From Chloroflexota bacterium (lineage in GTDB: Bacteria > Chloroflexota > UBA11872 > VXOZ01): a stretch of 64,000 bases of DNA. Below the pieces are notes generated by a model. The model was not told the origin of the DNA. It ran no database searches and saw only the letters and a list, made by a program, of their open reading frames with translations. Numbering within the stretch: position 1 is the stretch's first letter; every line of letters begins with the position of its first letter. The stretch spans positions 300,992 through 364,991 of the forward strand of contig OZ244814.1 of NCBI GenBank assembly GCA_965220175.1, in the 5' to 3' direction. A program made the position numbers and the translations under genes. Of the stretch, positions 3,473 to 58,062 are shown in pieces.

Positions 3473-3490
3473 TGCCAAGAGGAGCCGCCT

Positions 3491-4555: not shown

Positions 4556-4656
4556 GGTGAAGTCGCGAACCTGAGTGGAATGCCGCCTCGTACGCGTCCG
4601 GCCAAGACTAATTTCCTGCTCAGACTTGACTGGTCCAACGCCGAAAGGAGCCGTTT

Positions 4657-5721
4657 GTGCCTACCGTAACCGCTGAAGCCCTGCGCCGCATTGGCTACGC
4701 CTTCTTTGAAGCGCTGGGCTGCCGACCGGATGATGCCCGCATCATTCAGGACCATCTTGTCCAGTCCAATCTCTACGGCCATGACTCCCACGGCGTGGTG
4801 CGCATGGAGCAGTACTGGCACGCCGTGCGGGAAGAGGGTGTGGTTGACCCGCAAGCGGCGCCGGAAGTCGTGCGTGAACACCCGTGCACCGCGGTCGTGG
4901 ACGCGCATCACGGCTTCGGTCAGGTGGGCGCGGTGTTTGCCACGAAGCTCTTGATAGAGAAGGCGCAACAGTACGGCATCGCCAGTGTCTCGCTGCGCAA
5001 TACGAGCCACATCGGCAGAGTGGGCGAGTATCCGCACATGGTCGCGCAGGCCGGCATGATCGGGCTGATTTTTGTCAATGCGGGGAGGCTGGGCTTTCAG
5101 GTCGCGCCCTTTGGCGGTATCGACGGCCGGCTGGGCACGAATCCACTCGCATTTGCCGCGCCGCGGCGCAACGATCCGCCCTTTTTCGTGGACTTGACGA
5201 CGTCCACCGTCGCCGACGGCAAGATCAAGATAGCCGCTAACGAAGGTAAGCCCTTGCCCGAGGGCTGGATTGTCGATGCGGATGGCAACCCCAGCACGGA
5301 TCCCAGCGACTACTGGGACGAGCCGCGCGGGGCTGTGCTGCCGGTGGGCGGCCCTTTGGGACACAAAGGCACTGCGCTGAGCATGCTGAATGAGATCTGC
5401 GGCGGCGGATTGAGCGGACAGGGCATGTCGGCCGGCGACATGCGAGTGGACAGCAACGGCGTGCACATGACCGCCTACGACATCGGGCAGTTTGTGGAGC
5501 CGGAGTTCTTCTATGACGAGATCGATACGCTCATCAGCCACGTGAAAACCAGCCGCCCGGCTGCCGGCGTGGACGAGGTCCTGGTCGCCAGCGAGCCGGA
5601 GTACCGCGCGCAGCGTGAGCGCGAAAAGACGGGCATCCCTATCGACGAAACGACGTGGAGCAAGCTCTGCGACGCTGCCCGCGACCTGGGATTGAAACCG
5701 GATACCTGGGTACTGGCCTAG
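4657..5721 (+). CDS. Ldh_2 family oxidoreductase, paralog 3
   Basis: GTG start with AAGGAG RBS. Same family blocks. The 409-aa antisense ORF 4552..5781 is judged spurious. Confidence 0.85.
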   Translation: MPTVTAEALRRIGYAFFEALGCRPDDARIIQDHLVQSNLYGHDSHGVVRMEQYWHAVREEGVVDPQAAPEVVREHPCTAVVDAHHGFGQVGAVFATKLLIEKAQQYGIASVSLRNTSHIGRVGEYPHMVAQAGMIGLIFVNAGRLGFQVAPFGGIDGRLGTNPLAFAAPRRNDPPFFVDLTTSTVADGKIKIAANEGKPLPEGWIVDADGNPSTDPSDYWDEPRGAVLPVGGPLGHKGTALSMLNEICGGGLSGQGMSAGDMRVDSNGVHMTAYDIGQFVEPEFFYDEIDTLISHVKTSRPAAGVDEVLVASEPEYRAQREREKTGIPIDETTWSKLCDAARDLGLKPDTWVLA

Positions 5722-5803
5722 AACGGAATTGGTAGACTTGGGTCTAGACCGTGGAGAAATGAAATTAGACGTATGAACCAACGTCTAAGGTGGGTCCTCG
5801 GAT

Positions 5804-5900
5804 CGTCATTCTGAGGAGCGGAGCGACGAAGAATCTCGAATCAGGAGCTCTTTAGATTCCACGAACCGTGTTCGACGAACCCCGTTCGACGCTGAGCTTG
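5804..5900. repeat. Intergenic hairpin repeats (family E GTCATTCTGAGGAGCGGAGCGACGAAGAATC plus partial family B CGTTCGACGCTGAGCTTGG)
   Basis: Reverse-complement copy of the family E core at 25491..25523. The family B motif recurs at 8931..8990, 18497..18575, 19849..19986, 27203..27264 and 58753..58810. Confidence 0.6.
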
Positions 5901-5981
5901 GAGTGACAGGAAACGACTCCCTCAACGCTACCAAGTCTATTGCTACTAAGTCCGGCCTAGAAGACTCTTGCGCTAGAAAGG

Positions 5982-7052
5982 ATGCCGGTTGTGCCGACTT
6001 TCACAGCAAATACCTTGCGCCGCATCGGCGAAGAATTCTTGATCGCCCTGGGATGCCGTCCAGCAGACGCGCAGCTTGTGGCCGATCACCTTCTTCAGTC
6101 AAACCTCTTCGGCCATGATTCCCATGGTGTTTTGCGTTTGTATGAATATGCCCGCGCCGTGCATGAAGGACGCCTCGATCCCTTGGGTTCGCCGGAAATC
6201 GTGAGCGAACACGCTTGCACGGCGGTCGTGGACGCGCACGACGGCTTCGGCCACGTGGGCGCGGCTCTGGCAACCAAGCTGGCGATCGAGAAGGCGCGGC
6301 AGCATGGCTTGGCAAGCGTTTCGCTGCGCCGCGCGAGCCACATCGGCCGGGCGGGAGCGTATCCCCTGGTGATGGCCCAGGCAGGCATGCTCGGTGTGGC
6401 CTACGTCAACTCCGGCCGCATGGGATTCCAAGTAGTGCCGTTCGGCGGCATCGACGGTCGCCTTGGCACCAATCCGCTGGCCTTCGCCGCGCCCCGCCGC
6501 GCCGACCCGCCCATCATGGTGGATATGACGACCTGCACCGTTGCCGACGGCAAGATCCGCGTGGCCACCAATCTCGGCAAACCGCTGCCGGAGGGCTGGA
6601 TCATCGATAAGGCAGGCAATCCCAGCACGGACCCGCAAGTGTATTGGGAGGAACCGCGCGGCGGAATCTTACCTCTCGGCGGTCCGCTCGGGCACAAGGG
6701 CTATGCGCTCAGCTTGATGATGGAACTCAGCGCCGGCGGGCTGAGCGGACACGGCATGTCTTCGGGCGACATGCGCTCACCCGGCAACGGTGCGCTGTTC
6801 ACCGCATACGACATCGCCCACTTCACTGACCTGGACTCCTACTACGACGAGGTTGAGGCCATGGCAAGGCACGTCAAGTCAAGCCGTCCCGCGCCGGGCG
6901 TGACTGAGATATTCCTGCCCGGCGAGCCGGAGTTCCGCACGGAGCGCGAGCGTAAGCAAACAGGCATCTCCATTGACGAGACTACATGGGCAAAGCTCTG
7001 CGAATCCGCTCGCGAACTGGGCCTGGATCCTGGCGCTTGGTGGAATCCGTAA
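5982..7052 (+). CDS. Ldh_2 family oxidoreductase, paralog 4
   Basis: Same family blocks. Most similar to paralog 1. The start may be the in-frame GTG at 5991 rather than ATG at 5982. Confidence 0.8.
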   Translation: MPVVPTFTANTLRRIGEEFLIALGCRPADAQLVADHLLQSNLFGHDSHGVLRLYEYARAVHEGRLDPLGSPEIVSEHACTAVVDAHDGFGHVGAALATKLAIEKARQHGLASVSLRRASHIGRAGAYPLVMAQAGMLGVAYVNSGRMGFQVVPFGGIDGRLGTNPLAFAAPRRADPPIMVDMTTCTVADGKIRVATNLGKPLPEGWIIDKAGNPSTDPQVYWEEPRGGILPLGGPLGHKGYALSLMMELSAGGLSGHGMSSGDMRSPGNGALFTAYDIAHFTDLDSYYDEVEAMARHVKSSRPAPGVTEIFLPGEPEFRTERERKQTGISIDETTWAKLCESARELGLDPGAWWNP

Positions 7053-27386: not shown

Positions 27387-28745
27387 TCAGGCAGTAGATT
27401 CCGTTTCTTCTCCCTCCTCCGATTGAGCCTTTTCGCTCCGGTATTCCTCCAAGCATTCAATGACAATCCTGTTGATCTCAGGGAACTGGCCTTGGGCGAA
27501 ATCATCGAGTCTGCCTGAAATGGTCCGGCGAATCCTCTCCTCGTCCCACCAGTGCTCGTAGTCCGAACTCTCCAGAATGCCCCGCTTAAAGGGCAGTTCG
27601 ATGTAGTCTTCGGAATACCCTGGCAGCGGGCCTTTGAACATCCCGGGGTCTGCCTTGACACGATCGAGTAGCCTTTTCTTCAGATCCTCAGGGCCTCTCT
27701 TGGCAAAGACAAGGAACAGGCCCGCCGCGTTGTTCGTGACACGAACCTGAAAAAGCAGTAGGCTGTGAGGCCAACAGTCAATCTTGAGCTCCTCGTATCT
27801 GTCCCAATCGGTGGAGACAAACCGGGCGTACGGACGATTGCTCGTGCCTTTCTTCCATTCCTTGTGCTTGCTGACCTCCTCGCCCACCATGTGGTATCCC
27901 TCGCTCACGTAGTTGGGCTCGTACCGGTCCCGGTGCTCGATTATGAGATCGATGGCCTTCTTATGTTTCCGGTAGATTTTACGGGCCAGCTCGTGTACAT
28001 CGTCGCTGACTTCGGGCACGATATTTCTCCTTAATGTGATCGCGTATTGACGCAGCGCGGCGGCAACGTCCTGGTGAACAGCGGCGCCCTTTGCCTCGAT
28101 TGTCCGGTCAAGTATTCGCCGAATGCGCGAGTAGTCAAGCGTAGTCCAATGGTCCCATTCCGTTGCGTTTTCGGGCATGTCCCCTCTCGGCGTGAGAAAC
28201 ACCAGGCGCATCGTGTAGTCTGGGTAATGCTCCTTGAGCGCCTGCCGGTAGAAGGCCAGTTGATTGCCGCTTTCCGGCGACCACACTTTGTTTTCCACCG
28301 CGCACAGGAATCCGGCTTGCTCGTTGTGGATGCAGATGTCCAACCGGCCGCTTTCCCCGTCAAGTTCGAGGTTTTGCTCCCGGCACACCGTGGTGCTAAT
28401 CCGGGCGCCGGCGCGGGCGGCGCCGATTTCGACAAGGAACTCCCTGAGGAAATAATCGTCAAGGCCGTGATTGTCTCCAGGGCGCAGCAGCCAGGCGAGG
28501 AAATCGGAATGAAATTTTTCGATATCAACCAATCCCAAGGTCCTGAAGACGTCCACCTCCTCTTGCCACTTTGGAATCATAGCCGCTAACCGCGCCAGAT
28601 CCTCTCCGTCCTCCGCCAAGCGCCGCAAGGACCGGTGGGCCGCTTCATTCTCAAGAATGAAGAGTTGCTCAAGGTCTCCTAGGTCGTTCTGAAGCTCTTC
28701 TAAAGCGCCAGTCAGCTCGGAGCTTAGACTGCCGTCAGTCGCCAT
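27387..28745 (-). CDS. PD-(D/E)XK nuclease superfamily protein (about 450 aa) in a locally low-GC patch
   Basis: LDICIHNEQAGFLCAVENKVW contains a D...E-x-K restriction-endonuclease-like motif in the N-terminal half. Long C-terminal region of unknown function. Start taken at MATDGS (the ORF could start 29 codons earlier). Confidence 0.55.
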   Translation of the reverse strand: MATDGSLSSELTGALEELQNDLGDLEQLFILENEAAHRSLRRLAEDGEDLARLAAMIPKWQEEVDVFRTLGLVDIEKFHSDFLAWLLRPGDNHGLDDYFLREFLVEIGAARAGARISTTVCREQNLELDGESGRLDICIHNEQAGFLCAVENKVWSPESGNQLAFYRQALKEHYPDYTMRLVFLTPRGDMPENATEWDHWTTLDYSRIRRILDRTIEAKGAAVHQDVAAALRQYAITLRRNIVPEVSDDVHELARKIYRKHKKAIDLIIEHRDRYEPNYVSEGYHMVGEEVSKHKEWKKGTSNRPYARFVSTDWDRYEELKIDCWPHSLLLFQVRVTNNAAGLFLVFAKRGPEDLKKRLLDRVKADPGMFKGPLPGYSEDYIELPFKRGILESSDYEHWWDEERIRRTISGRLDDFAQGQFPEINRIVIECLEEYRSEKAQSEEGEETESTA

Positions 28746-28995
28746 AGCATTCTCATTTGTAAAGAGATAAATACGTGCGAGGAAGGATGTGACGAGTCTG
28801 CCAAATCCCCGTTTCAGGCAGGAGTATATCACTCACGCACAGTGAGCGGAGGAATTCCCGTGATCTGAACTTACCAGTTTTAGGCAATAGTGCGCCGGTC
28901 GTTGGTCACGACCCGGAGACCCGCTGGCATTTGACCTGCGAGCGGTGCTCAACCTGAAACGGCTGGCTCCCATTGCGTGGTTTGCAAAGAGGCTC

Positions 28996-32079: not shown

Positions 32080-33335
32080 AGACCGGGTTGATGGGTAACA
32101 CTTGTTCGGGCTGATAGGTTACACCTAAAGGCATGGAGAATCTTGCAGCAGGAGGATGGCCATGCCGTGGAAGGTGGAAACACTTATGTCTGCTCGGGAA
32201 GAATTTATCGCTCTGGCACTGGCTGACGGGGCGAACATGAGTGAGCTGTGTCGGCGCATGGGGATCAGTCGGAAGACCGGGTACAAGACGCTGCGGCGGT
32301 ACGCGCAGAGTGGTGCAGACGGTCTGCAGGACCGGTCGCACCGCACGCACACGTGTCCGCACCGCACGAGCCGGGAGATGGAGGAACGCATCATCGCGTT
32401 GCGGCTGGCGCATCCCAAGAAGGGCGCGCACGTGCTGCGCAGGATGCTGCAAGACCAGGGGGTGACCGACGTGCCGGCCAAGAGCACGATCCAGGCCATG
32501 CTCAAGCGCAATGGCCTCATCGACCCTGCAGAGAGCGCCAAGCATACTCCCCAGGTGCGCTTTGAGTACCCTGCGCCCAACGACCTGTGGCAGTTGGACT
32601 TCAAAGGGCATTTCAGCATGCAGCACGACCGCTGCCATCCGCTCACGCTCCTGGACGATCATTCTCGCTTCAACCTCACGCTCCAAGCCTGTGCCAACCA
32701 GCGTGGCGAGACGGTGCAAGACCGCCTCACCACGGCCTTTCGCCGCTACGGCCTGCCCCAGGCCATGCTCATGGATAACGGCTCACCCTGGGGCAACGAC
32801 GCCGGTCAGCCCTACACGCCCTTCACCGTCTGGCTCATGCACCTGGGCATCACCGTGCGCCACAGCCGACCCTACCATCCCCAAACCCTCGGCAAGCTCG
32901 AACGCTTCCACCGCTCCCTCAAAAGCGAATTGCTGCAGGGCCGTACCTTCACCGACCTGGAGCACTGCCAACGCGCCTTCGACACGTGGCGTCATTTCTA
33001 CAACTTGGAACGCCCGCACTATGCCCTCGGCCTGGACACTCCCATCAGCCGGTACACGCCCAGTGCACGCTCCTTCCCCGAGACCCTGCCTGCCCTTGAA
33101 TACGACCCCGACGATCAGGTGCGCAGCGTCGACGTCTCCGGCCGCATCTCTTTCCAGGGCAGCAGGCTCCGTGTCGGCAAAGCTTTCACCCACAAACAGG
33201 TCGCACTGCGACCCACCCCAACAGACGGCGTCTGGAACGTGTACTTCTCAAGACAACGCCTAAAGTCCATAGACCTCAGAGAACAAAATGTGTAACCTAT
33301 CAACCCGAACATCTGTTACCTATCAGCCCAGTCTG
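32080..33335 (+). mobile_element. IS481-family insertion sequence (~1.25 kb) with ~40-bp imperfect terminal inverted repeats, inserted into a family D palindromic repeat
   Basis: Left end CCGGGTTGATGGGTAACACTTGTTCGGGCTGATAGGTTACAC pairs with the reverse complement of the right end CTGGGCTGATAGGTAACAGATGTTCGGGTTGATAGGTTACAC (36 of 42 positions). The flanks (CCCTCTCCTGGGGGAG on the left, CAGGGAGAGGGTTAGGGTGAGGGG on the right) are the two halves of a family D repeat. Confidence 0.75.
32156..33295 (+). CDS. IS481-family transposase (DDE integrase core)
   Basis: N-terminal HTH region followed by an rve-type integrase core (LWQLDFKG, MLMDNGSPW, RPYHPQTLGKLERFHRSL). Confidence 0.85.
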   Translation: MAMPWKVETLMSAREEFIALALADGANMSELCRRMGISRKTGYKTLRRYAQSGADGLQDRSHRTHTCPHRTSREMEERIIALRLAHPKKGAHVLRRMLQDQGVTDVPAKSTIQAMLKRNGLIDPAESAKHTPQVRFEYPAPNDLWQLDFKGHFSMQHDRCHPLTLLDDHSRFNLTLQACANQRGETVQDRLTTAFRRYGLPQAMLMDNGSPWGNDAGQPYTPFTVWLMHLGITVRHSRPYHPQTLGKLERFHRSLKSELLQGRTFTDLEHCQRAFDTWRHFYNLERPHYALGLDTPISRYTPSARSFPETLPALEYDPDDQVRSVDVSGRISFQGSRLRVGKAFTHKQVALRPTPTDGVWNVYFSRQRLKSIDLREQNV

Positions 33336-36125: not shown

Positions 36126-37112
36126 ATGGCACAAGTGAATCCTCCAACAAATGAACCTGAAGGGTTCAAGGAAGCGAGCGTACAGCGCACGGCTGTCGAC
36201 CTTGCGCTTCCGGACGATTCAAGAGTCTCAATTCCAGTTACCCACATCTTTGGCCAATGTCCGCGGCCAAGAGTGGTGATTGTGGCCGGTGTGCACGGCG
36301 ACGAGTTGGTTGGACCGCAGGCATTGGTCGAGTTGGCGCGGGAGCTAACCCCAGGCGACTTGCGCGGTACGGTAGTTCTAGTGCCGAGTGCCAATCCACT
36401 GGCCATTGCCGCCGGTCTGCGCACAGCGCCACATGACGACGTGGACCTGAACCGCATCTTACCTGGCAAGCGCGGCGGCTCGGCGACCGAGCGCATTGCC
36501 AACTGTCTCGTCACATCGGTTATTGCTGACGCAGATTGGGTAATTGACCTCCATAGCGCGGGACGGGAGGGCGATCTGCTGCCGCTGAGCGGCTTCCGTG
36601 AGGCGACCGGCGAATGCGCGCGCCGTTCTGCCCTGGCAGCCGCGGCCTTTGGTCTGGAGCACTACTGGATGATGCGCTGGTCCCCCGGCACGCTCTCCAC
36701 GTGGGCCAATCAGCAAGGCATTCCGGCCGTAGGCTGCGAGGTGGGCGGCCGCGGCATGGCTACACGCGAGCAGATCGACCTCTACAAGAAGGGTATGCGC
36801 CGCTGCCTGCGGCACCTCGGCATGCTCGATCCGCCGCTGGAGGTCGCCATGCCGCCCAAGGTCTGGACACAAGAACACCTTTTCGCCCCGTGCGGCGGAC
36901 TGTTGGAATCTCTTGTAACGCTGAGGCAAGATGTTCAGGCCGGGGAAGCACTCGCCCGCGTGCATGATCTTTGGGGGAACGTCTGCGGCGAAATCACCGC
37001 GCCAGAGGACGGCAAGATCCTGCATACTCGCGTTCAGCAGTCAGTAGCAGCGGGTGACAACGTCTTCTGGCTGGGACGCGAGGAAGACAATCCGTTGCAT
37101 TCGTCCACGTAG
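36126..37112 (+). CDS. succinylglutamate desuccinylase / aspartoacylase family (AstE/AspA) zinc deacylase
   Basis: VVIVAGVHGDELVGPQAL zinc-ligand motif and DLHS...E arrangement typical of the AstE_AspA family. Confidence 0.75.
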   Translation: MAQVNPPTNEPEGFKEASVQRTAVDLALPDDSRVSIPVTHIFGQCPRPRVVIVAGVHGDELVGPQALVELARELTPGDLRGTVVLVPSANPLAIAAGLRTAPHDDVDLNRILPGKRGGSATERIANCLVTSVIADADWVIDLHSAGREGDLLPLSGFREATGECARRSALAAAAFGLEHYWMMRWSPGTLSTWANQQGIPAVGCEVGGRGMATREQIDLYKKGMRRCLRHLGMLDPPLEVAMPPKVWTQEHLFAPCGGLLESLVTLRQDVQAGEALARVHDLWGNVCGEITAPEDGKILHTRVQQSVAAGDNVFWLGREEDNPLHSST

Positions 37113-37195: not shown

Positions 37196-38938
37196 CTAGC
37201 AATCGCTCATGATCGGCTGAGCGCTCTGCGCAACGCGCGCGATGGCGTCCAACTTCTCGCCTATTTCGGGATCGATTTCGTCCTGCGGCACAAATTCGGC
37301 CAACTCGTAGAAGGCTTTCTTGCGCATGAGGTTGGGCAAACTGAGGTGCCGAAAGTAGGCTTCGAACACCGGCCTAAGGAAGTCGTCGCTCGCCTTAATG
37401 TCAGAGTCCCACGGCGAGCCCAAGCCTAGAGTGCGCAACGCTTCTGCGATATTGGCAACGGCTGCGCGCATTGCCTCAAGCCGTCGCGGGACTTCAGCGC
37501 GCGCAAACAAGGGGCCAGGCGCGTCAGACTCCGCCGTACTTTGTGCGTAGGCCTCCAGTGTCGCTTGGGAACAAAGGTAGTTTTCAATCTCGCGCCGCTG
37601 CCAGGTTAGCCGCTCAACCTGACCGGTCTCGGGCGTACCGGAGTCTGGGCGGTCGAAGAGCGCGACGCCTTTTAGATGCGGCAGCGCCTCCCTGAGTCCG
37701 TGAAAGTGATGCGGTACTGCTGAAGCGTTGTTGCCAACGTAGTGCACGTAGGGACGTTCCAGGGCACGACCCGCCTCTGCGTGTCCAAGGCGTCGCGCGA
37801 ATGCCTGTAAGATCGAGAGGTCTGTGGATCCCTCCAAGTAGAGCACCCAGCCCGTCTGCTTCGCCTGATAGTAGTGTTCGAAGCCAATGTCCTTTGGGGA
37901 CTTCAAGAGTTGACTACCCTGGTCGTCGATGCGGTGGGGCTCTCCAATGAACGCGATCACCATATCCTTGCCGGCAGCCTCGTCGAGCAGCACTTCAGAG
38001 TGGCTGGCTGCGATGATCTGGCTACCGCTGGCGGTAGCGGCGTCAGTGATGAGGCGATAGATTTGGCGCTGCCTCAAGATTTCAAGGTGTGCGTCCGGCT
38101 CATCCAGCATGAGCACTGCACCTGGATTGGCATACATATAGGCCAAAATGAGCAGAGTCTGCTGGAGACCCCGTCCGCTGGATGATAGGTCTAGCGTGAC
38201 ATCATGTTCACGATAGCTCATGGCAATCTCACCACGCTCCGTGATGTACCGGGGCGGCTCAATGTGCACACCAAACAAGCTGCGAATCTGAGCAGTTAGC
38301 TCCTGCCAAGCCTCAGAGTGTTCCTCGTAGATACCGTAGCAGAGATTTCGCAATACCTCCGCCGTACGTCCCTCGCCTACACGTACAGTCACCGCCCCAG
38401 GGTCTAGCCGTGTTTCTGTAGCAGCAAGACCGGACATTGGTGGCAAGAACGCAACCTGCACACTGCCAGCCGCTTCTGGTACCGGCATTCTTTCGGCCGT
38501 GCTGGTATTGGTTTCTCGCAATGGGCGGCAATAGAATGATTCCTCGTTGGCGTAGTCAAACTCCAGCCCACAGGTCCACGGTTGATCGTCAGTGACGCCC
38601 TCCACGATGACATCGATCCGCACGTTCTGGGTTTGCTGCTTGCCGTTCTCTATGCGCACGTCTCGCGAATGTAGTCCGTGCCACAAGAGACGTGCACTCG
38701 GCACCGGAATGGCAACAAGGTCTCGTCGATTGACAGTTACACCAGGTCGCTTTTCTGGCGCGCCCTTGCCCCGACGCTTCTCATTCCATCGTTTCAGCCC
38801 AACGTCCCAAAGCGCCAGCGCCTGCATGGCTGAGGTCTTGCCCGAGTTGTTGGGGCCGATGAACGCCACCGGGCTGCCAAGCTCGATCTCCACCTCGTCA
38901 AAGCGCTTGAAGTTGCGGATGGTGAGTTTAGTCAGCAT
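37196..38938 (-). CDS. OLD-family / PARIS-like ABC-ATPase fused to a C-terminal TOPRIM-like (DUF4435-like) nuclease domain
   Basis: Walker A FIGPNNSGKTS at the N-terminus. Walker B VLMLDEPDAHLE about 300 aa downstream (split ABC ATPase as in OLD/AriA/GajA). C-terminal WVLYLEGSTD ... ALFDRPDSG resembles the TOPRIM glutamate and DxD motifs. Start taken at MLTKLTIRNF; the ORF extends to 39016. Confidence 0.6.
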   Translation of the reverse strand: MLTKLTIRNFKRFDEVEIELGSPVAFIGPNNSGKTSAMQALALWDVGLKRWNEKRRGKGAPEKRPGVTVNRRDLVAIPVPSARLLWHGLHSRDVRIENGKQQTQNVRIDVIVEGVTDDQPWTCGLEFDYANEESFYCRPLRETNTSTAERMPVPEAAGSVQVAFLPPMSGLAATETRLDPGAVTVRVGEGRTAEVLRNLCYGIYEEHSEAWQELTAQIRSLFGVHIEPPRYITERGEIAMSYREHDVTLDLSSSGRGLQQTLLILAYMYANPGAVLMLDEPDAHLEILRQRQIYRLITDAATASGSQIIAASHSEVLLDEAAGKDMVIAFIGEPHRIDDQGSQLLKSPKDIGFEHYYQAKQTGWVLYLEGSTDLSILQAFARRLGHAEAGRALERPYVHYVGNNASAVPHHFHGLREALPHLKGVALFDRPDSGTPETGQVERLTWQRREIENYLCSQATLEAYAQSTAESDAPGPLFARAEVPRRLEAMRAAVANIAEALRTLGLGSPWDSDIKASDDFLRPVFEAYFRHLSLPNLMRKKAFYELAEFVPQDEIDPEIGEKLDAIARVAQSAQPIMSDC

Positions 38939-39067
38939 TGGTAACCATCGTGTTCTTTCATTCAGCCTCGCAATTCTGCACTTCGCGGAAGATCGGCTTT
39001 CGCAGCAGTGTACCACTCGGCGCAGGGCGACCGAATGGCGTAGCGACCGCCAAATGCCAAGTCATCG

Positions 39068-39379
39068 TCAAGTCTCATAGATGGGCGTTCTCGTGGCCTC
39101 GACTGCTTCCATGAAGTATGGGTTCCTGATGGCCGACTCGACTACCAAGTCCACCGGCTTGTTGAAAAGCCGTTGCAGAGCTTCCAGCAAACCAAAGTAC
39201 GTGTTGGCGTAGACGCCGGGTGGCAGCGGTTCGAACTCCACCACAAAGTCGAGGTCGCCTGCCGCCGCCAAGTCCCGGCCGATCGCGGCTGAACCAAACA
39301 GGGCAAGCCGCCGGACACGGTAGCGGCGGCAGAGCCGTTCCACATCGGCAGCCTGTTTGCTAATGACCGGGTGAGGCAC
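39068..39379 (-). CDS. minimal nucleotidyltransferase (MNT, Pol-beta superfamily) domain protein
   Basis: RLALFGSAAIGRDLAAAGDLDFVVEF is the GSxxxG...DxD nucleotidyltransferase signature. Probable GTG start at 39379 preceded by GGGAGGG. The longer ORF to 39595 overlaps the purH fragment and is judged an artefact. Confidence 0.6.
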   Translation of the reverse strand: MPHPVISKQAADVERLCRRYRVRRLALFGSAAIGRDLAAAGDLDFVVEFEPLPPGVYANTYFGLLEALQRLFNKPVDLVVESAIRNPYFMEAVEATRTPIYET

Positions 39380-39461
39380 GTCGCCCTCCCGCCTGTCTAG
39401 GCAAGAAAATAACTTTAGTTGCTCCTGCTCACCGTCATCTTGGTCAGGTGCACGGCAGGTG

Positions 39462-40034
39462 TCACGTGACCTTCTTGAAATACCCCGCAATATGCGTGTC
39501 GTAGTCGGCGGTGTGTTGAAAGGCCTTGGCGGCGAGGCGGGTGCGCAGGGCGGAGTCAACCTGCCCGCCGGTGAGCGCGCTGAGCACCGGAGCATAGTCG
39601 GCCGGGTCTACCACCACGAGCACGGAATCCGCGTTCTTGGCGGCGGCGCGAATGAGCGTCGGGCCGCCGATGTCGATGTTTTCCACGATCTCGTCGTGCC
39701 CGGCTCCGCTGCGCAGAGTTTCGACGAAGGGATAGAGATTCGAGGCAACTATCTGCACCGGCGCGATGGCGTGGTCCCGCAACGTTTGCATGTGTACCGG
39801 GTCGTCCTGCCGCGCCAGGATGCCGGCATGCACCACCGGGTGAAGCGTCTTTACGCGGCCGTCCAGGATTTCGGGAAAGCCGGTCACGTCGCTGATGCCG
39901 GTGACGGAAACTCCCGCCGCTACCAGCGCTCCCTGCGTGCCGCCGGTGGAGACGATCTCCCAGCCGAGCTTGGCCAGGCCCTGACCGAATTCTACGATGC
40001 CGGATTTATCGAATACGCTAAATATGGCGCGCAT
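39462..40034 (-). pseudogene. purH: purH 5' fragment (IMP cyclohydrolase / MGS-like N-terminal domain only, 190 aa); the AICAR transformylase part is absent
   Basis: Translation aligns residue-for-residue with the first ~200 aa of PurH (VSDKSGIVEF, GRVKTLHP, NLYPF, DIGGPTLIRAAAKN, HTADYDTHIAGYF) and then stops. The position where the C-terminal ~320 aa should be encoded is occupied by the MNT and ATPase-TOPRIM genes. Confidence 0.5.
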
Positions 40035-40527
40035 GCGTTTCAGTTCCTCTTTGCGTACCTGAGTAAGTTGATTGCCGCCCCGTACTTGCTTCGGGGCAAA
40101 CCCTTTACGGGAAGGAGAATAGCAAAACCGGCGGTTGGTCCCGTCAGACTACCCCTGTAGCTGTGATTATACACGTGTGCGTGCGGTTACTCTGATGCAC
40201 GCATCCCACGCGCTAGGCCGACCGAAACGGGATTGGTTCGCACAGTAAAAGCATGTCCTTTTGCTACCAGTCCCCAAGCAACGCCCGGACTCGACGACGT
40301 ATGTCGCACACAGTAAGATAGGCGAGGACTGCCGCGCCTCCCGGTGTGCAGCGGAGATTGTCCAAGTTTGGTCATGTCCCAGCGCTCAGTCTCCAGCTCG
40401 CAATGCTTGAGACAGTGCTCTACGGCACCCGCAAACGCGACTGACGAATGGTTGCCTCTCGCTTGGCGCTCTTCGCGCTTGCACGAGAATTCCCATTGCA
40501 AAGACAACCCCCATCGAGGAATTAACC

Positions 40528-41493
40528 ATGGCACAAGAACGTCTCAAATTCGTCGTTCCCGGCGATTTTCCGCCGCAGATTCAGGGCTCCCCACATCTGA
40601 AGCGCCTTGAGCCCTACGGCGAGGTTGACCTCTATCTTGACCGGCCGCAGAGCATGGCAGAGCAAATGAAGCGCGTGGAGGGCGCCCACGTGATTCTCAA
40701 CACGCGCGGGGCGATCAAGTGGTTTGCGCCAGAGCTCCGGGCATTGCCGGACCTACGTCTCATTGCCACCTGTTCCATTGGCGTCGACTCGATTGACGTC
40801 GAGGCGGCCCGTGCGTGCGGCGTCGCCGTGGCCAACCAGCCGGGGCGCACGGCGCCCGTCGTTGCCGAGCACATCATCAGCCTCATGTTCGCCGCCGCCA
40901 AGCGGGTGGCATTTCAAACAAGCGAACTCAAGGCCGGACGCTGGACGCTCAAACAGAACGTCATGCTCAGCGGCAAGACACTTGGCGTCGTCGGCACGGG
41001 CAACGTGGGCCGCGAGGTGGCGCGGGTTGCCAACCTGCTCGGCATGCGCTGCCTGGCGTGGACGTTCAACCCCTCGCCGGAACGAGCGCGTGAACTCGGG
41101 GTGGAATTCGTCGAGTTAGACGATCTGCTAAAGGAATCGGACGTGGTGAGCTTACACGTGCGGCTCAGTGACGAGAGTCACCACCTCATCGGCGCGCGCG
41201 AAATCGGCTTGATGAAGCCGGGCGCGCTCCTTATCAACGCCGGTAGAGGTGACCTGGTGGATACCGCCGCTCTCGTTGCCGCACTACAGTCCGAGCACCT
41301 GGCTGGCGCCGGTCTCGACGTGTTTGATCAGGAGCCGCTGCCGCCGGATCATCCCATCCTTGCGTGCGAGCAGGTCGTGTTGACGCCGCACCTGGCAGAC
41401 CAGACCCCGGAAGGCATCGAGCTGCTGAACGAGGGCGCGGTCTCGAATACTATCGGCTTCATCGAGGGTCGCCCACAGAACATCGTTACATAG
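40528..41493 (+). CDS. D-isomer-specific 2-hydroxyacid dehydrogenase (phosphoglycerate dehydrogenase-like)
   Basis: GKTLGVVGTGNVGREVAR NAD-binding motif and catalytic R/E/H layout of the D-2-hydroxyacid dehydrogenase family. Confidence 0.8.
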   Translation: MAQERLKFVVPGDFPPQIQGSPHLKRLEPYGEVDLYLDRPQSMAEQMKRVEGAHVILNTRGAIKWFAPELRALPDLRLIATCSIGVDSIDVEAARACGVAVANQPGRTAPVVAEHIISLMFAAAKRVAFQTSELKAGRWTLKQNVMLSGKTLGVVGTGNVGREVARVANLLGMRCLAWTFNPSPERARELGVEFVELDDLLKESDVVSLHVRLSDESHHLIGAREIGLMKPGALLINAGRGDLVDTAALVAALQSEHLAGAGLDVFDQEPLPPDHPILACEQVVLTPHLADQTPEGIELLNEGAVSNTIGFIEGRPQNIVT

Positions 41494-41794: not shown

Positions 41795-43105
41795 AAGTTA
41801 ATTTAGGGACCTGCAGCAAGGTAGTCCTGCCACGGTGTGCCGCGCCGGACGATGGCGTTGAGTTGCAGGAGCATTTTGCGCATTACCGCCACCAGGGCGA
41901 CTTTGCCCGGCTTACCCCGCTGGCGCAGACCTTGGTAGAAGCGCTGCAGGCTGTTGTCCTGGCGGATAGCAGACAAGGCGGCGAGGTAGAGAGCGCGGCG
42001 CACGACGCCCCGGCCGCCGCGGATGGCGCGATAGCCGCGCTGCTGTCCGCTGTCCCGTGACCACGGTGCGAGACCTGCCAGCGCGGTCAAGGCCTTACCG
42101 GAGAGCTGACCGAGTTCGGGGAGGAAGGCGGTGAGGATGGCGGCGGTCAAGTCGCCGACGCCGCGCATGCTGCCGAGCAGTTGGGCGCGCTGGCGCAGGT
42201 GCTGGCTGCGCTGCAGGGTCGCTTGATACTGCTGGTCCAGCCGTTCTATCTCCTTATCCAGCCAGCGGATGTGGCGTGTGACGGAGCATTGGCTAACGGA
42301 GGAGAGGCCTTTGTCCAGACGGTTCTGTTCCTGCACACGTTGCTTGACGAGTTGCTGGCGGCGCTGCAGCACATCTTGGAGCTGTTCACGTTCCGGGGAG
42401 GGCGCCGGAAGGTCCTCCAGCGCCATCACAGCGCCGTACCGGGCGAGCACCTGCGCATCCAGGCGATCGGTCTTCGCTTCCTTGCCACAGGCGCGGGCAA
42501 AGGCCCGCACCTTGTTGGGATGCGCCACCTCCACTGAGGGCAGCGCCGTGTGCAGACGCTTTACCACTTGGCGCTCATACCCGCCGGTCGGCTCACACAC
42601 TGCCACCGTGACGCCTGCAGCTTGCAGCCAACGCACCAGGGCGGTGATACCCACCGTGGTGTTCGCGAAACGCCGCACGGGGCCGCCCGCTACCGACACA
42701 TCGAGTTGCGCTTTCCCAACATCGATCCCTGCCACAACTTTCATCCCGCTCTCCTTCCTGGCATACTGGTGGTGTCCTCCACACTTGCAGATGCGGGCCA
42801 TTGGTCTGCCCAGGTATCTGTTCGGAGCGACATTCTGGCGCGAGGGGTGTCGTACTCCGGCGCGATGCAGCCAGGCCACTGCCTCGGCTCACCTAATGAC
42901 GGACGACGCGCCCCTCGCGTTGCCACTCAACTTCGCTCATTTGCCCGCCTTTTTCAACATACAAATGACGGAAAGAGGAGCGCGCGAGGCCTTGCAAGTG
43001 CGAATCGACAGCAGATTCTGCCAACGAATTACTCAACACTTGCACCAATGACCAAAACGTCAACTCTCCCTGTTGGAAGGCGATTCCATCAACGCATTGC
43101 ACAAC
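41795..43105 (-). mobile_element. IS110-family insertion sequence (~1.3 kb, approximate boundaries) flanked by family A repeat modules
   Basis: DEDD-type transposase gene inside. No clear terminal IRs, as expected for IS110. A family A half-module (TTCCCGCTTTCACGGGAATC) lies at 43113..43132 on the far side. Confidence 0.5.
41803..42744 (-). CDS. IS110-family transposase
   Basis: MKVVAGIDVGKAQLDVSV start with GGAAGGAGAG RBS. C-terminal region typical of IS110/IS1111 transposases. Confidence 0.85.
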   Translation of the reverse strand: MKVVAGIDVGKAQLDVSVAGGPVRRFANTTVGITALVRWLQAAGVTVAVCEPTGGYERQVVKRLHTALPSVEVAHPNKVRAFARACGKEAKTDRLDAQVLARYGAVMALEDLPAPSPEREQLQDVLQRRQQLVKQRVQEQNRLDKGLSSVSQCSVTRHIRWLDKEIERLDQQYQATLQRSQHLRQRAQLLGSMRGVGDLTAAILTAFLPELGQLSGKALTALAGLAPWSRDSGQQRGYRAIRGGRGVVRRALYLAALSAIRQDNSLQRFYQGLRQRGKPGKVALVAVMRKMLLQLNAIVRRGTPWQDYLAAGP

Positions 43106-44200: not shown

Positions 44201-45382
44201 CTAGCGGTTGCGCCGCCGGCGGCGCAGAAACGCCGGCAGGTCCAGGTCATCCACTTCCGCTTCCGCGTCTTCCCGTTGCGGCTCGCTCGCCGCTCCCTCG
44301 TCCGGTGACGAACGCTGCCTGCTGCCGCGCTGCTGTTGCTCGCCGGGGAGGCCGGTGGCAATCAGCGTGACTTGCACCTCTTCCTGAATCGCCGGATCGA
44401 TCGATGCGCCAAAAATGATGTTTGCTTCGCGGTCTACCGTCGTGCTGACGATCTCAGCGGCGGCGCTGATTTCTTGAATGCTCATGTCGGGGCCGCCGCG
44501 GAAGTTCAGCAGGACGCCGCGGGCGCCTTTCACCGGCTTGTCCGAGAGCGGGTCTTTCATCGCTTCTTCCACCGCACTTACCATGCGGTTTTCGCCGGAG
44601 CCGATACCAACTCCCATCATGGCGGTGCCCGCATTCTGCATCACCGAGCGCACGTCGGCGAAATCAACGTTGATGATACCCGTCGTGGTCACGAGTTCAG
44701 TAATGGACCTCACCCCATTCACGAGCATCTCGTCCGCCAGGGCGAAGGCCTCGGTCATCGGCGCCGATGCCGGCACCGCGGCGAGCAGGCGGTCGTTGTG
44801 AATGACGATGAGCGTATCCACGTGTTGTTGTAGTGCCTGCAGTCCGGCGACGGCGTTGCGCTGCCTGGGACGACCCTCGAACATGAAGGGGAGCGTAACC
44901 ACGCCCACCGTAAGGGCGCCGTGGCGCTTAGCGAGTTCAGCCACGAGGGGCGCCGCGCCCGTGCCGGTGCCGCCTCCCATGCCAGCCGTGACGAATACCA
45001 TGTCGCCGTCATTGACGAGTTGCTCGATGTCCTGAATGCTCTCCTCTGCCGCCCGCTGACCGAGTTCCGGCTGTCCGCCGGTGCCGCGGAGCCGGGTAAC
45101 GCGGTCTCCAATCGCAAGTTTCTCCTCTGCGCGTGAGACCTGAAGCGCCTGCGCATCGGTGTTGATGACCGCATAGGAAGCGCCGACCACACCGGCGTCG
45201 ATCATGCGGTTTACCGCATTGCTACCGCAGCCGCCGACCCCGACGATGCGAATCTGAATGCTCCCGCGGGCCTCACGGGCCTGCGAGCCGGGCGTGACGA
45301 TATCGGGAACCACCGGGCGGGGACGTGTGGAATCCTTGACGTTTTCTAACCGTTCGGGATCAAAGCCGGGCCGCTTCGACAC
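44201..45382 (-). CDS. ftsZ: cell division protein FtsZ
   Basis: Tubulin signature [14 protein letters not shown], plus NTDAQAL and [18 protein letters not shown]-binding blocks. Confidence 0.9.
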
Positions 45383-46136
45383 GGTCTAACACCTCTCTGG
45401 CTAGCAACTGATACGCATCTCTTGCTTTCTTTGCGCCAACATACGCGTTCACTGGGACACCCGCCGACGCGGCTTCCAGGATCTTGCTGTTCGTCCCGAT
45501 TTCCGTGGCAAAGACCCGGTCGCCCCAGCGCTCGTGCAGATATTGCCAAACCGCCTTCTCTTCCCGCAAGCGCCGGTCGTACTTGCTAAGCAGAACGCCG
45601 AGAATCTCGATTTTCGGGTTGAGCGACGCCGCCTCCGCAATGGTCTCCTGCAGCATGTACAAGCCCTGCAGGGAGAAGAACCGCGCTTCCGTGGGAATGA
45701 TGACACAGTCGGCCGCTACCAAGGCATTCACCGTGAGCAGACCGAGTGACGGAGGCGTGTCAATTAGGATGAAATCATAGTTGTCCCGAAACCGTTCCAG
45801 GCGTTCCCGCAACCGCAACTCACGACCTATGACGGCAGCCAGTTGAAACTCGACACTGGCAAGCTCCAACGACGCGGGAACGATGTCAATTGCCGTGCCG
45901 GTGTCATCTTCGATACGATAGATGGGCAACTCGCCGTTGCGGTCGCGCAACGCGTTAGCTACCGAGGTCTCTAGCTCTCGCTCCAAGCCAAAGTGTGCGG
46001 TCAGGTTGGCCTGTGCATCCATGTCTACCACCAGAATGCGCTTACCCATTCGCGAAAGCGTTGCACCCAAATTGGCAGTTGTCGTTGTCTTGCCAACACC
46101 ACCCTTCTGGTTGGCACAGGCAATTATGAGAGCCAT
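45360..46136 (-). CDS. ParA/Soj-family P-loop ATPase
   Basis: Deviant Walker A KGGVGKTTTTANLGA. Overlaps the ftsZ start by about 23 nt. Start taken at MALIIACANQKGG. Confidence 0.8.
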   Translation of the reverse strand: MALIIACANQKGGVGKTTTTANLGATLSRMGKRILVVDMDAQANLTAHFGLERELETSVANALRDRNGELPIYRIEDDTGTAIDIVPASLELASVEFQLAAVIGRELRLRERLERFRDNYDFILIDTPPSLGLLTVNALVAADCVIIPTEARFFSLQGLYMLQETIAEAASLNPKIEILGVLLSKYDRRLREEKAVWQYLHERWGDRVFATEIGTNSKILEAASAGVPVNAYVGAKKARDAYQLLAREVLDRVEAARL

Positions 46137-46559
46137 ACCTCTTGCTCTGCAGCCTCCCGCGACCAAGCATCCCGCTGTATCCACGTAGTGTATCATAAGG
46201 CCAATACGCTCACAAATAACCGCTTGATGGTTCTTTTTAGTTGTATGCAAACTGCCCTACTACCGGGCACCGCGCGGCTCCTGTCGGGACCAGAATCTTG
46301 CCCAATCACGCTGTGGGGAGATCCAAGCAGGGCCGCCGCCTTGAGGGGCAATGCATGCGTCTTGCCGACCCGGCGGTCCGTTTCCCGGTGGTTTCCGGAT
46401 ACGGGTAGGGTGACACTGGTCTTTCGCCCGCCGGTACGGGCGGTGCGCCAGTTTTCCGTGCCGCTATTCAAGGATTTCGAACTTCACTCTTCGGCTCGCT
46501 GAGCGCGTGAGAAAGACGCTATGCCCCGGAGTTCAAGTTTATGACCAGATTTCAAATCT

Positions 46560-56461: not shown

Positions 56462-56977
56462 GTGGACGACTCAGAACGGACTATACGACCTCTCGTTGGC
56501 GTCATCATGGGCTCCAAGTCCGACTGGGAGACCATGCGCCATGCGGCGGAAACGCTGGAACAACTGGGCGTACCGCATGAGGTGCGGGTTGTCTCCGCGC
56601 ACCGGACTCCCGATCAAATGTTTGCCTACGCCGAGACGGCGGCAGAGCGGGGCATCGAGGTCATCATTGCCGGCGCGGGAGGCGCGGCGCATCTGCCCGG
56701 CATGACGGCGGCGAAAACCAGCCTGCCCGTGCTCGGCGTGCCGGTACAGTCGCGCGCCCTCAACGGCATGGATTCCCTCCTCTCCATCGCGCAGATGCCC
56801 GCAGGGGTGCCGGTAGGCACGTTGGCCATCGGTCGGGCCGGAGCGGTCAACGCGGCGCTGCTGGCTGCTGCGATGCTGGGCAACAAGCACCCGCAATTCC
56901 GTGCGGCCTATGAAAGATATCGCGAGCAACAGACCGGCGACGTGCTCGCTCACCCCAATCCGAGAGATGCCGAATGA
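56462..56977 (+). CDS. purE: N5-carboxyaminoimidazole ribonucleotide mutase
   Basis: [14 protein letters not shown] and [13 protein letters not shown] blocks. Confidence 0.9.
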
Positions 56978-58062
56978 ATGTTGGCATCCTCGGCGGCGGG
57001 CAGCTTGGCCGCATGTTAGTTTTGGCGGGGTATCCCCTGGGTCTGCGGTTTCGTGTGTTCGACACTTATGCTGATGCCCCGGCCGGCGAGATGGCAGACC
57101 TCACGGTCGGCAAGAGCTTTGCCGATCCCAATGCGCTCGAACCCTTCATTGCCGATCTCGACCTTGTCACCTATGAATTCGAAAACGTCCCGGTGGACGC
57201 GGCGTGCTTCATCGACGCCCGCGTGCCAGTCTTTCCTCCGCCTGAGGCGCTGGAAGTCTCGCAGGACCGCCTGGCTGAGAAAGTCTTCTTTCGCAACCTG
57301 GATATCCCTACACCCAACTTCAGCGTGGTTGATTCTCACGAAGCCCTGGAGGCTGCCCTAGAGAGGCTTGGCACACTGGCCGTGCTCAAGACCCGGCGGC
57401 TGGGCTACGACGGCAAAGGCCAGCGCATCATCCAGCAAGCAACGGACGTTCAAGCCGCCTGGAACACGCTAAAAGGACAACCGCTGATTCTGGAGTCTTT
57501 CGTCCCCTTTGACCGTGAAGTGTCGCTGCTCTCCGTGCGCGGCCGGGACGGCGCCACTGCGTTCTACCCGTTGGTGGAGAACTTTCACCACAGGGGCATC
57601 CTCCGTCGTTCTAACGCACCGGCTCCGGGAACTTCACCGGAGTTGCAGCCACAAGCGGAGGACTACGGCAAGCGGGTGCTGGAGGCCCTGGACTACGTGG
57701 GCGTGCTGGCTATCGAGTTCTTTCAACAAGACGGCCGGCTGCTCGCCAACGAAATGGCGCCCCGCGTGCACAACTCCGGTCACTGGACGATTGAAGGGGC
57801 GGAGACCAGCCAGTTCGAGAACCACCTGCGGGCGGTGCTCGGTCTTCCGCTGGGTTCTACCGCGCCGCGCGGCCATGCCGTGATGCTCAACCTCATTGGC
57901 ACCATACCCGACAGCGCCACCATCTTAGGGGCGGGCGACGCTCATCTCCATCTCTATGCCAAGGAGCCGCGACCCGGCCGCAAGCTCGGTCACATTTCGT
58001 TGCGCGGCGAGGACGCAGACACCGTCCGGTCACAGGCCGACGCGCTTGAGAAACTTCTGTAG
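56974..58062 (+). CDS. purK: N5-carboxyaminoimidazole ribonucleotide synthase
   Basis: ATP-grasp fold. Start overlaps the purE stop. [14 protein letters not shown] block. Confidence 0.85.

What the first reader, a model, noticed from the sequence alone, without database searches (positions are those of the whole stretch)
39462..40034. purH reduced to its N-terminal IMP-cyclohydrolase domain
The 190-aa product aligns colinearly with PurH residues 1 to ~200 and stops at ...HIAGYFKKVT.

The AICAR-transformylase domain (about 320 aa) is not encoded downstream. The MNT gene begins 83 bp after the stop.

purE and purK elsewhere in the window look intact.

Two readings are possible. The cell may carry a second purH or a separate AICARFT gene elsewhere. 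Alternatively this is a disrupted gene, plausibly broken by the adjacent island insertion.

The retained fragment still has its own leader with a perfect TATAAT hexamer (about 40157..40162 on the minus strand).
Basis: partly seen in the sequence, partly recalled or inferred. Interest (0 to 1): 0.5.

Follow-up and report, generated by a model that had tools for sequence, protein, structure and literature searches.

The report
Conserved stand-alone IMP cyclohydrolase gene (purJ)
The short "purH" is not a broken gene but an intact stand-alone IMP cyclohydrolase (the known purJ/PurH2 type), kept at this position and length in every sampled relative, so it is an ordinary example of a documented split of the last two purine-synthesis steps.

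Summary
ORF 39462..40034 (-) encodes 190 aa matching PurH profile positions 6-195 of 510 (E 2e-76). No AICAR-transformylase coding sequence, even degraded, exists anywhere in the 64-kb window.

The disruption-by-island reading is not supported.
- About 25 homologues at 75-94% identity are also about 190-200 aa.
- Five relatives' loci show the gene in the same syntenic slot between a 2-hydroxyacid dehydrogenase and an AstE-like gene.
- The most divergent relative (L089) has no inserted cargo at all and still carries the short gene.
- dN/dS is 0.08-0.22 at dS 0.7-1.4, like FtsZ.
- The catalytic Lys66, Tyr104, Asp125 and Lys137 equivalents are kept.
- The protein ends exactly at the domain boundary, with free-varying tails.
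- A promoter-like motif, ACACGTGTATAAT, is invariant upstream.

This matches the published purJ/PurH2 class: stand-alone IMPCH, usually paired with a stand-alone AICARFT gene purV, and shown active for Archaeoglobus AF1811.

What does vary is the slot just downstream of purJ. It holds defence or toxin-antitoxin cargo: nothing, MNT-HepT, an AAA ATPase, or MNT plus ATPase as here. Interest is low: a new member of a known kind.

The parts
39462..40034 (-). purJ (PurH2-type): stand-alone IMP cyclohydrolase, 190 aa, corresponding to the whole N-terminal domain of PurH
   Evidence: establish homology across the full IMPCH domain. K62, Y101, D121 and K133 align with human ATIC K66, Y104, D125 and K137. 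Searches show it conserved at this length and position in relatives. One search gives dN/dS 0.08-0.22.
40045..40052 (-). Shine-Dalgarno-like AAAGAGGA, 10 nt upstream of the ATG
   Evidence: Read directly from the sequence. A purine-rich GGAG/GGGG-type block sits at the same place in relatives.
40035..40165 (-). 5' leader of about 130 nt between the -10 element and the start codon. No known RNA family and no convincing conserved fold.
   Evidence: Rfam found no hit even at E<=10. RNAalifold consensus energy is only -3.3 kcal/mol. Leader length ranges from about 100 to 260 nt among relatives.
40166..40178 (-). Promoter-like motif ACACGTGTATAAT (TATAAT at 40166..40171). It is invariant in all six aligned clade sequences; no canonical -35 is present.
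   Evidence: The consensus scan reports no full sigma-70 site.
40528..41493 (+). Divergently transcribed D-2-hydroxyacid dehydrogenase. It is the conserved left neighbour of purJ throughout the clade.
39068..39379 (-). MNT-type nucleotidyltransferase (antitoxin-like), 103 aa. Accessory cargo in the variable slot downstream of purJ; no HepT partner here.
   Evidence: PDC-S09, E 9e-28. One search shows 75% identity to the MNT of L088, where a HepT gene follows, and no HepT hit in the window.
37196..38938 (-). AAA_15/AAA_21 (OLD/ABC-type) ATPase, 580 aa. Accessory, defence-like cargo in the same slot.
   Evidence: (AriA/NsnB/GajA-like ATPase regions). One search shows 83-87% identity to the genes in L081 and L082. 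It is absent from L088 and L089.
36126..37112 (+). AstE/AspA-family gene. It is the conserved right boundary of the variable slot, convergent with purJ.
56462..58062 (+). purE (56462..56977) and purK (56974..58062). These show that the de novo purine pathway is present.
   Evidence: The same pair occurs in relative L090.

Best explanation
This is purJ (also called PurH2): a naturally unfused IMP cyclohydrolase that converts FAICAR to IMP, the last step of de novo purine synthesis.

Shown here:
- The protein is the complete IMPCH domain of PurH with its catalytic residues.
- It ends at the domain boundary.
- It has its own conserved promoter-like element and a ribosome-binding site.
- It has been kept at this length, in this syntenic slot, under purifying selection, across an uncultured bacterial clade with 3.3-3.6 Mb genomes. 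By FtsZ and PurH similarity that clade is nearest to Chloroflexota.

The split therefore predates the clade and has nothing to do with the MNT/ATPase cargo next to it. That cargo was inserted later into the spacer between purJ and the AstE-like gene.

Inferred, not shown: the preceding step (AICAR to FAICAR) is carried out by a separately encoded AICAR formyltransferase elsewhere in the genome. This is most likely a purV (PurH C-terminal domain) gene, as in 44 of 50 purJ-bearing bacteria surveyed. The irreversible cyclisation by PurJ would then pull the unfavourable transformylase reaction without any physical fusion.
For: - Domain identity. PurH structures 4ehi, 3zzm and 1p4r match at E 5e-54 to 7e-49 over residues 1-188.
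- Catalytic residues: K62, Y101, D121 and K133 align with human ATIC K66, Y104, D125 and K137. The motifs GRVKTLHP, NLYPF, ENIDIGGP and AAAKN are invariant in the clade.
- Boundary: all clade proteins stop just after ...YD.H.A.YF. Their tails differ (KVT, EIS, KIT, EMRGNQPAPD, SGNFVRLNEANGAQT), whereas full-length PurH continues with ...LRYGENPHQ.
- Conservation: hits P0001-P0026 at 75-94% identity are 190-201 aa, several on 3.3-3.6 Mb contigs. All 80 GTDB loci at 53-63% identity encode or run on into a C-terminal extension, about 320 aa in nearly all of them; none stops at the domain boundary as the clade proteins do.
- Synteny: methyltransferase, 2-hydroxyacid dehydrogenase, then purJ divergently, then AstE in L081, L082, L088 and L089. 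L089 has purJ directly followed by AstE.
- Selection: dN/dS is 0.08-0.22 at dS 0.7-1.4. Comparators are FtsZ at 0.06-0.17 and the dehydrogenase at 0.07-0.10.
- No relic: tblastn with full-length PurH finds nothing beyond residue about 195 in the window. In L085, by contrast, a truncated purH still shows an in-frame ...LRYGENP... relic after the stop.
- Literature: purJ/purV are defined and surveyed in 1,403 genomes (PMC6486802). The naturally unfused PurH2 AF1811 is active in vitro and complements an E. coli auxotroph (PMC6797443).
- Pathway context: purE and purK are intact in the window.
Against: - The partner AICARFT gene was not found. It is absent from the 64-kb window, from the +/-10 kb flanks of four relatives, and from 10 kb beyond the purEK side in L090. 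The rest of the genome could not be searched.
- No activity or expression data exist.
- purJ is not clustered with other pur genes here. However, 34 of 50 bacterial purJ genes in the survey are not either.
- One clade-specific substitution lies next to the catalytic Lys: AAAKN-A-D instead of the usual KN-F/H/Y. Its consequence is unknown.
Confidence: 0.8

Rival explanations
1. A purH gene truncated by insertion of the neighbouring MNT/ATPase island. On this reading the ORF is a decaying remnant, or a pseudogene still expressed from the old promoter.
For: Accessory, defence-like genes lie immediately downstream. The region also carries IS110 and IS481-family insertions absent from relatives. 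Truncated purH with an AICARFT relic does occur elsewhere, in L085.
Against: The same short gene is present in L089, which has no cargo at all, and in L088, which has different cargo. dN/dS is 0.08-0.22 over dS about 1. No AICARFT relic is present. The protein ends exactly at the domain boundary in every member.
Confidence: 0.02
2. A redundant or specialised IMPCH paralogue that coexists with a normal full-length purH elsewhere in the genome. The survey lists purH/purJ co-occurrence in 4 of 50 bacteria.
For: Co-occurrence is documented. Whole-genome content is unknown here. The gene is not in a pur cluster.
Against: Such co-occurrence is uncommon (4 of 50 against 44 of 50 with purV). No second PurH-like protein from the clade's large contigs appeared among the top 120 hits, although that list only reaches about 58% identity. 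The strength of purifying selection matches that of a housekeeping gene.
Confidence: 0.1
3. PurJ works with a formyltransferase not homologous to PurH. Candidates are a formate- and ATP-dependent PurP-type enzyme, so far reported only in archaea, or an unknown enzyme. The lineage would then have no PurH-type AICARFT at all.
For: No AICARFT domain was seen in about 100 kb of clade sequence examined. Archaeoglobus pairs purJ with purP.
Against: About 100 kb is only about 3% of the genome. purP was found in none of 1,266 bacterial genomes. purV/purJ is the normal bacterial pairing.
Confidence: 0.06
4. A ForH-like cyclohydrolase of a C-nucleoside or other secondary-metabolite pathway rather than of primary purine synthesis.
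For: A stand-alone homologue, ForH (PDB 6nko, 216 aa), matches at E 2e-29.
Against: The protein is much closer to bona fide PurH (E 5e-54). The neighbours are housekeeping or accessory genes with no biosynthetic cluster. Its position next to core genes (ftsZ, mnmG, thiE) is conserved across the clade.
Confidence: 0.02

Closest known systems
purJ / PurH2: stand-alone IMP cyclohydrolase genes (Cruz et al. 2019, PMC6486802; A. fulgidus AF1811, Hunter et al. 2019, PMC6797443)
   Same: It is a single-domain protein of about 190 aa equal to the PurH N-terminal (MGS-like) IMPCH domain. Catalytic residues are kept and it is unfused to AICARFT. It is often not clustered with other pur genes, and its occurrence follows taxonomic lines: whole clades carry it.
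   Different: The host is an uncultured clade nearest Chloroflexota, which is not among the taxa named in the main text of that survey (Prevotellaceae, Fervidobacteriaceae, Thermodesulfobacteria, Desulfovibrionales, Desulfobacterales). The partner purV is not yet demonstrated here, and no biochemistry exists for this protein.
Bifunctional PurH/ATIC (TIGR00355, PRK00881; PDB 4ehi, 3zzm, 1p4r, 1g8m)
   Same: The IMPCH domain is 53-63% identical to bacterial PurH N-domains, with the same active-site residues and the same reaction expected.
   Different: It lacks the about 320-aa AICAR transformylase domain and scores below the equivalog cut-offs (257.8 < 402; 241.9 < 528).
ForH (PDB 6nko), stand-alone IMPCH homologue of formycin biosynthesis
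   Same: A stand-alone PurH N-domain fold of similar length.
   Different: It is much more distant (E 2e-29 against 5e-54 for PurH), and no pathway-specific gene cluster surrounds the gene here.
Truncated purH with an AICARFT relic
   Same: A 195-aa IMPCH-only ORF.
   Different: In L085 the syntenic relatives carry full-length purH followed by the same 373-aa gene, and a ...LRYGENP... relic follows the stop. That indicates a recent deletion or an assembly defect. The window's clade has no relic and a long history as a short gene.

Membership tests
purJ / PurH2 (stand-alone PurH-type IMP cyclohydrolase) | Full-length homology to the N-terminal IMPCH (MGS-like) domain of PurH | tested here: met
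   Residues 1-188 align to purH profile positions 6-195, E 2e-76. Pfam MGS plus the start of AICARFT_IMPCHas. PDB PurH chains match at E 5e-54 to 2e-47.
purJ / PurH2 (stand-alone PurH-type IMP cyclohydrolase) | IMPCH catalytic residues (vertebrate ATIC Lys66, Tyr104, Asp125, Lys137; the residue list is from my own knowledge of the ATIC literature) | tested here: met
   K62, Y101, D121 and K133 align with them. They are invariant in the clade.
purJ / PurH2 (stand-alone PurH-type IMP cyclohydrolase) | The ORF ends at the domain boundary with no fused or adjacent AICARFT domain | tested here: met
   The stop follows ...YFKKVT. Full-length PurH continues with about 320 aa. No AICARFT hit occurs in the window.
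purJ / PurH2 (stand-alone PurH-type IMP cyclohydrolase) | Maintained as a functional gene: conserved in relatives and under purifying selection | tested here: met
   About 25 clusters at 75-94% identity with length 190-201 aa. Synteny in four relatives. dN/dS 0.08-0.22.
purJ / PurH2 (stand-alone PurH-type IMP cyclohydrolase) | The genome also encodes an AICAR formyltransferase (purV, or purP/purH), so that the pair replaces purH | not testable with these tools
   Only about 100 kb of clade sequence was reachable. The window's own contig could not be retrieved.
purJ / PurH2 (stand-alone PurH-type IMP cyclohydrolase) | Catalyses FAICAR to IMP | not testable with these tools
   Shown only for the homologue AF1811 (PMC6797443) and, from my own knowledge, for truncated human ATIC (Rayl et al. 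1996, cited in PMC6486802).
Bifunctional PurH (TIGR00355 / PRK00881 equivalog) | C-terminal AICAR transformylase domain fused to IMPCH, with a score above the equivalog cut-off | tested here: not met
   Scores are 257.8 bits against a cut-off of 402, and 241.9 against 528. Profile positions above 195 are unmatched.
Recently truncated purH / pseudogene | AICARFT relic downstream, full-length orthologue at the same locus in close relatives, relaxed selection | tested here: not met
   No relic, no full-length orthologue at the locus in any clade member, and low dN/dS. The positive control L085 does show a relic.
ForH-like secondary-metabolism cyclohydrolase | Embedded in a C-nucleoside biosynthetic gene cluster and closest to ForH | tested here: not met
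   ForH matches at E 2e-29 against PurH at 5e-54. The neighbours are a dehydrogenase, a methyltransferase, ftsZ, AstE and a peptidase.

The most novel reading that the evidence does not exclude
The clade has no PurH-type AICAR transformylase at all. PurJ would then be fed by a non-homologous formyltransferase: a PurP-type formate/ATP-dependent enzyme, never yet reported in bacteria, or an undescribed one. That would be a new bacterial solution for step 9 of purine synthesis.
Probability: 0.06. Interest if true: 0.6.

Novelty: new member of a known kind. Interest (0 to 1): 0.12.

Why it matters
Mostly as a correction. Annotation pipelines and readers will tend to call this a truncated or partial purH, or a pseudogene; several homologues in public records are labelled 'bifunctional ... 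partial'. It is in fact a complete, selected gene of the purJ class. It adds an uncultured lineage nearest Chloroflexota to the taxa that split the last two purine steps.

It also gives a clean contrast between an ancient split (this clade) and a recent in-situ truncation (L085). Metabolic reconstructions of these MAGs should score IMP cyclohydrolase as present and look for purV separately. The biology itself is already documented, so the finding would not surprise a specialist.

Tried and rejected
- Riboswitch in the 130-nt leader (ZTP, purine and similar). Rfam gave nothing at gathering thresholds for the window and six loci, and nothing at E<=10 for 39900-40560. RNAalifold on five leaders gave -3.3 kcal/mol with mostly broken pairs. 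Rejected for lack of evidence.
- AICARFT elsewhere in the window. tblastn with 12 full-length PurH proteins and 14 partial ones found none.
- Finding the clade in GTDB genomes to read the taxonomy and search whole genomes.
- Extending the window through exact-protein look-ups. The window's own contig is not on record. A 94%-type relative (L090) gave 10 kb beyond the purEK side with no pur genes.
- The third protein-database search with an outgroup AICARFT domain was not run. The list shows only the best 120 hits, and the clade would sit in a plateau of thousands of sequences at 55-62% identity. The chance of seeing its purV was judged to be a few percent.
- The 373-aa Pfam-less gene after purJ in L085 was considered as a possible AICARFT substitute. 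It was rejected because it also follows full-length purH in L005, L014, L018 and L019.
- L006, an apparent very long PurH, looks like a chimeric or fused reading and was not used.
- The antisense ORF 39459..40160 (+) and ORF 40187..40534 (-) are treated as non-coding shadows.
- P0027, P0028 and P0030 are clade purJ variants that appear frameshifted, probably from assembly indels.

Full report
**Observation**

The ORF at 39462..40034 on the minus strand is as described: 190 aa, ATG start, ending ...HIAGYFKKVT.
- It carries the Pfam MGS-like domain and the first 59 positions of the AICARFT_IMPCHas model.
- It aligns end to end with positions 6-195 of the 510-position NCBIfam purH equivalog (E 2e-76). 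The score is below the full-length cut-off, as expected for half a protein.
- Solved PurH structures match residues 1-188 at E 5e-54 to 2e-47.
- tblastn with 12 full-length PurH proteins from fetched loci found only this N-terminal domain in the whole 64-kb window. Nothing matched the transformylase half, and no degraded relic lies after the stop.
- The next gene on the strand is an MNT-type nucleotidyltransferase starting at GTG 39379.
- purE (56462..56977) and purK (56974..58062) are intact.

**Is it a broken gene? Relatives say no**

A protein search returned about 25 clusters at 75-94% identity that are all 190-201 aa. Several lie on 3.3-3.6 Mb contigs; the window's own protein is on a 3,349,120-bp contig. 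By contrast, none of the 80 GTDB loci at 53-63% identity stops at the domain boundary. Nearly all continue for a further ~320 aa; the exceptions are three ORFs that run off the end of their locus and three of atypical length.

I fetched four relatives' loci with 10 kb of flank on each side, plus one 3.4-kb contig with the same gene order.
- In L081 (83%), L082 (85%), L088 (78%) and L089 (75%) the gene order is the same as in the window. It runs mnmG, thiE, parA-like, ftsZ, methyltransferase, 2-hydroxyacid dehydrogenase, then divergently purJ, then convergently an AstE-family gene, an M20 peptidase and so on.
- Only the content of the spacer between purJ and AstE differs:
  - nothing in L089;
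  - an MNT-HepT pair in L088;
  - a 580-aa AAA_15/AAA_21 ATPase in L081 and L082;
  - MNT (75% identical to L088's, no HepT) plus the ATPase (83-87% identical) in the window.
- The short gene is present with every version of the slot, including the empty one. The cargo therefore arrived after the gene was already short.

**Selection and anatomy**

- Pairwise Nei-Gojobori estimates give dN/dS of 0.08-0.22 at dS 0.7-1.4 for purJ. On the same genomes FtsZ gives 0.06-0.17 and the neighbouring dehydrogenase 0.07-0.10.
- The alignment shows the motifs GRVKTLHP, NLYPF, ENIDIGGP and AAAKN invariant.
- K62, Y101, D121 and K133 align with human ATIC K66, Y104, D125 and K137. That these are the catalytic residues is my recollection of the ATIC structural literature.
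- All clade proteins end a few residues after the last IMPCH helix (...YD.H.A.YF), with tails that differ in length and sequence. Fused PurH continues into ...LRYGENPHQ.
- Upstream, ACACGTGTATAAT is invariant in all six aligned sequences, although the rest of the about 490-bp divergent intergenic region is only about 50% conserved.
- A purine-rich ribosome-binding site precedes the ATG.
- The leader has no Rfam match and no convincing conserved fold.

**What it is**

The published comparative survey of 1,403 genomes names exactly this kind of gene purJ (IMPCH domain alone) and its counterpart purV (AICARFT domain alone).
- purJ was found in 50 bacterial genomes: 44 together with purV and 4 with purH.
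- 34 of the 50 were not next to other pur genes.
- The pattern follows taxa (PMC6486802).
- The naturally unfused PurH2 of Archaeoglobus fulgidus (AF1811) cyclises FAICAR in vitro and complements an E. coli auxotroph (PMC6797443).

The window's gene meets every sequence-level criterion of this class. The most likely mechanism is that PurJ performs FAICAR to IMP, with AICAR formylation supplied by a separately encoded enzyme, probably purV. That last step is inference: I could not search the rest of the genome.

**Limits**

- The window's own contig is not retrievable by exact look-up.
- The single GTDB scan saturated before reaching the clade.
- 10 kb beyond the purEK side in a close relative (L090) holds no pur genes.
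- I ran no further search on an outgroup AICARFT query. Only the best 120 hits are shown, and the clade would sit in a plateau of thousands of similar scores.
- Taxonomy could not be named. FtsZ shows an isolated clade (68-100% within it) whose next hits, at 51-53%, are Ardenticatenia and other Chloroflexota and Bacillota. The closest fused PurH proteins are Dehalococcoidia.

**A useful contrast**

On a Dehalococcoidia contig (L085), a 195-aa IMPCH-only ORF sits where its relatives (L005, L014, L018, L019) have full-length purH followed by the same 373-aa gene. In L085 the stop is followed by an in-frame ...LRYGENP... relic of the transformylase domain. That is what a recent truncation or assembly defect looks like. 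The window's clade shows none of these signs.

**Verdict**

The 'disrupted by the island' reading is rejected. The 'split gene with the other half elsewhere' reading is favoured but only half tested. This is a new member of a known kind, and interest is low. The residual novel possibility, with a probability of a few percent, is that the clade lacks any PurH-type transformylase and uses a different enzyme for step 9.

Noticed in passing
window 37196-39461; L081 10574-12671; L082 10574-12706; L088 10595-11201; L089 10607-10797: The spacer between purJ and the AstE-like gene is a variable slot for defence or toxin-antitoxin cargo. It is empty in L089, holds MNT-HepT in L088, an AAA_15/21 ATPase (AriA/NsnB/GajA-like ATPase regions) in L081 and L082, and MNT plus ATPase in the window.
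   Followed up: partly
window 39068-39379 (-): The MNT-type nucleotidyltransferase (PADLOC PDC-S09, E 9e-28) is 75% identical to the MNT of L088 but has no HepT toxin partner. The ATPase gene starts 129 nt after it. It is therefore an orphan antitoxin-like gene.
   Followed up: partly
window 41803-42879 (-) and 32156-33295 (+): An IS110-family transposase lies between the dehydrogenase and the methyltransferase. An IS481-type integrase lies between a 400-aa unknown gene and the deacetylase-like gene. Both positions are uninterrupted in L081, L082, L088 and L089, so these are recent insertions in this genome.
   Followed up: partly
window 27387-28832 (-): A 481-aa PD-(D/E)XK (PDDEXK_4) protein matches the PADLOC candidate system PDC-S26 (E 1e-73). 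A PDDEXK_4 gene is also seen at the edge of L082 but not in L081 or L088.
   Followed up: no
window 40035-40527: The 493-bp divergent intergenic region between purJ and the 2-hydroxyacid dehydrogenase keeps its length (about 465-490 bp; longer by the database gene call in L089) across the clade. Besides the purJ -10 motif it contains a second conserved block, around 40290-40320 (...TATCTTACTG...TCGTCGAGTC...). No Rfam family matches and its function is unknown.
   Followed up: partly
window 2411-7052: Three paralogous Ldh_2 (malate/L-lactate dehydrogenase family 2) genes lie within 4.6 kb (2411-3472, 3491-4555, 5982-7052). A 409-aa ORF without Pfam hits sits on the opposite strand between the second and third.
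   Followed up: no
window 44201-46250 (-): ftsZ is immediately preceded by, and overlaps by 23 nt, a ParA/MinD-type ATPase gene. The pair is conserved in all relatives examined.
   Followed up: no
L085 6001-6810: A Dehalococcoidia contig carries a 195-aa IMPCH-only ORF followed by an in-frame relic (...LRYGENP...) of the transformylase domain, at a locus where relatives have full-length purH. This is a recent deletion or an assembly defect. An MNT-HEPN pair also sits just upstream of it.
   Followed up: partly
protein P0022 (Actinomycetes MAG, partial, 319 aa): This protein contains two tandem copies of most of the IMPCH domain. The window protein matches residues 14-166 and 160-318.
   Followed up: no
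proteins P0027, P0028, P0030 (clade members): These are purJ homologues at 77-86% identity whose N- or C-terminal parts switch to Arg/Ala/Gly-rich nonsense. They are most likely indel errors in long-read assemblies rather than real variants.
   Followed up: no
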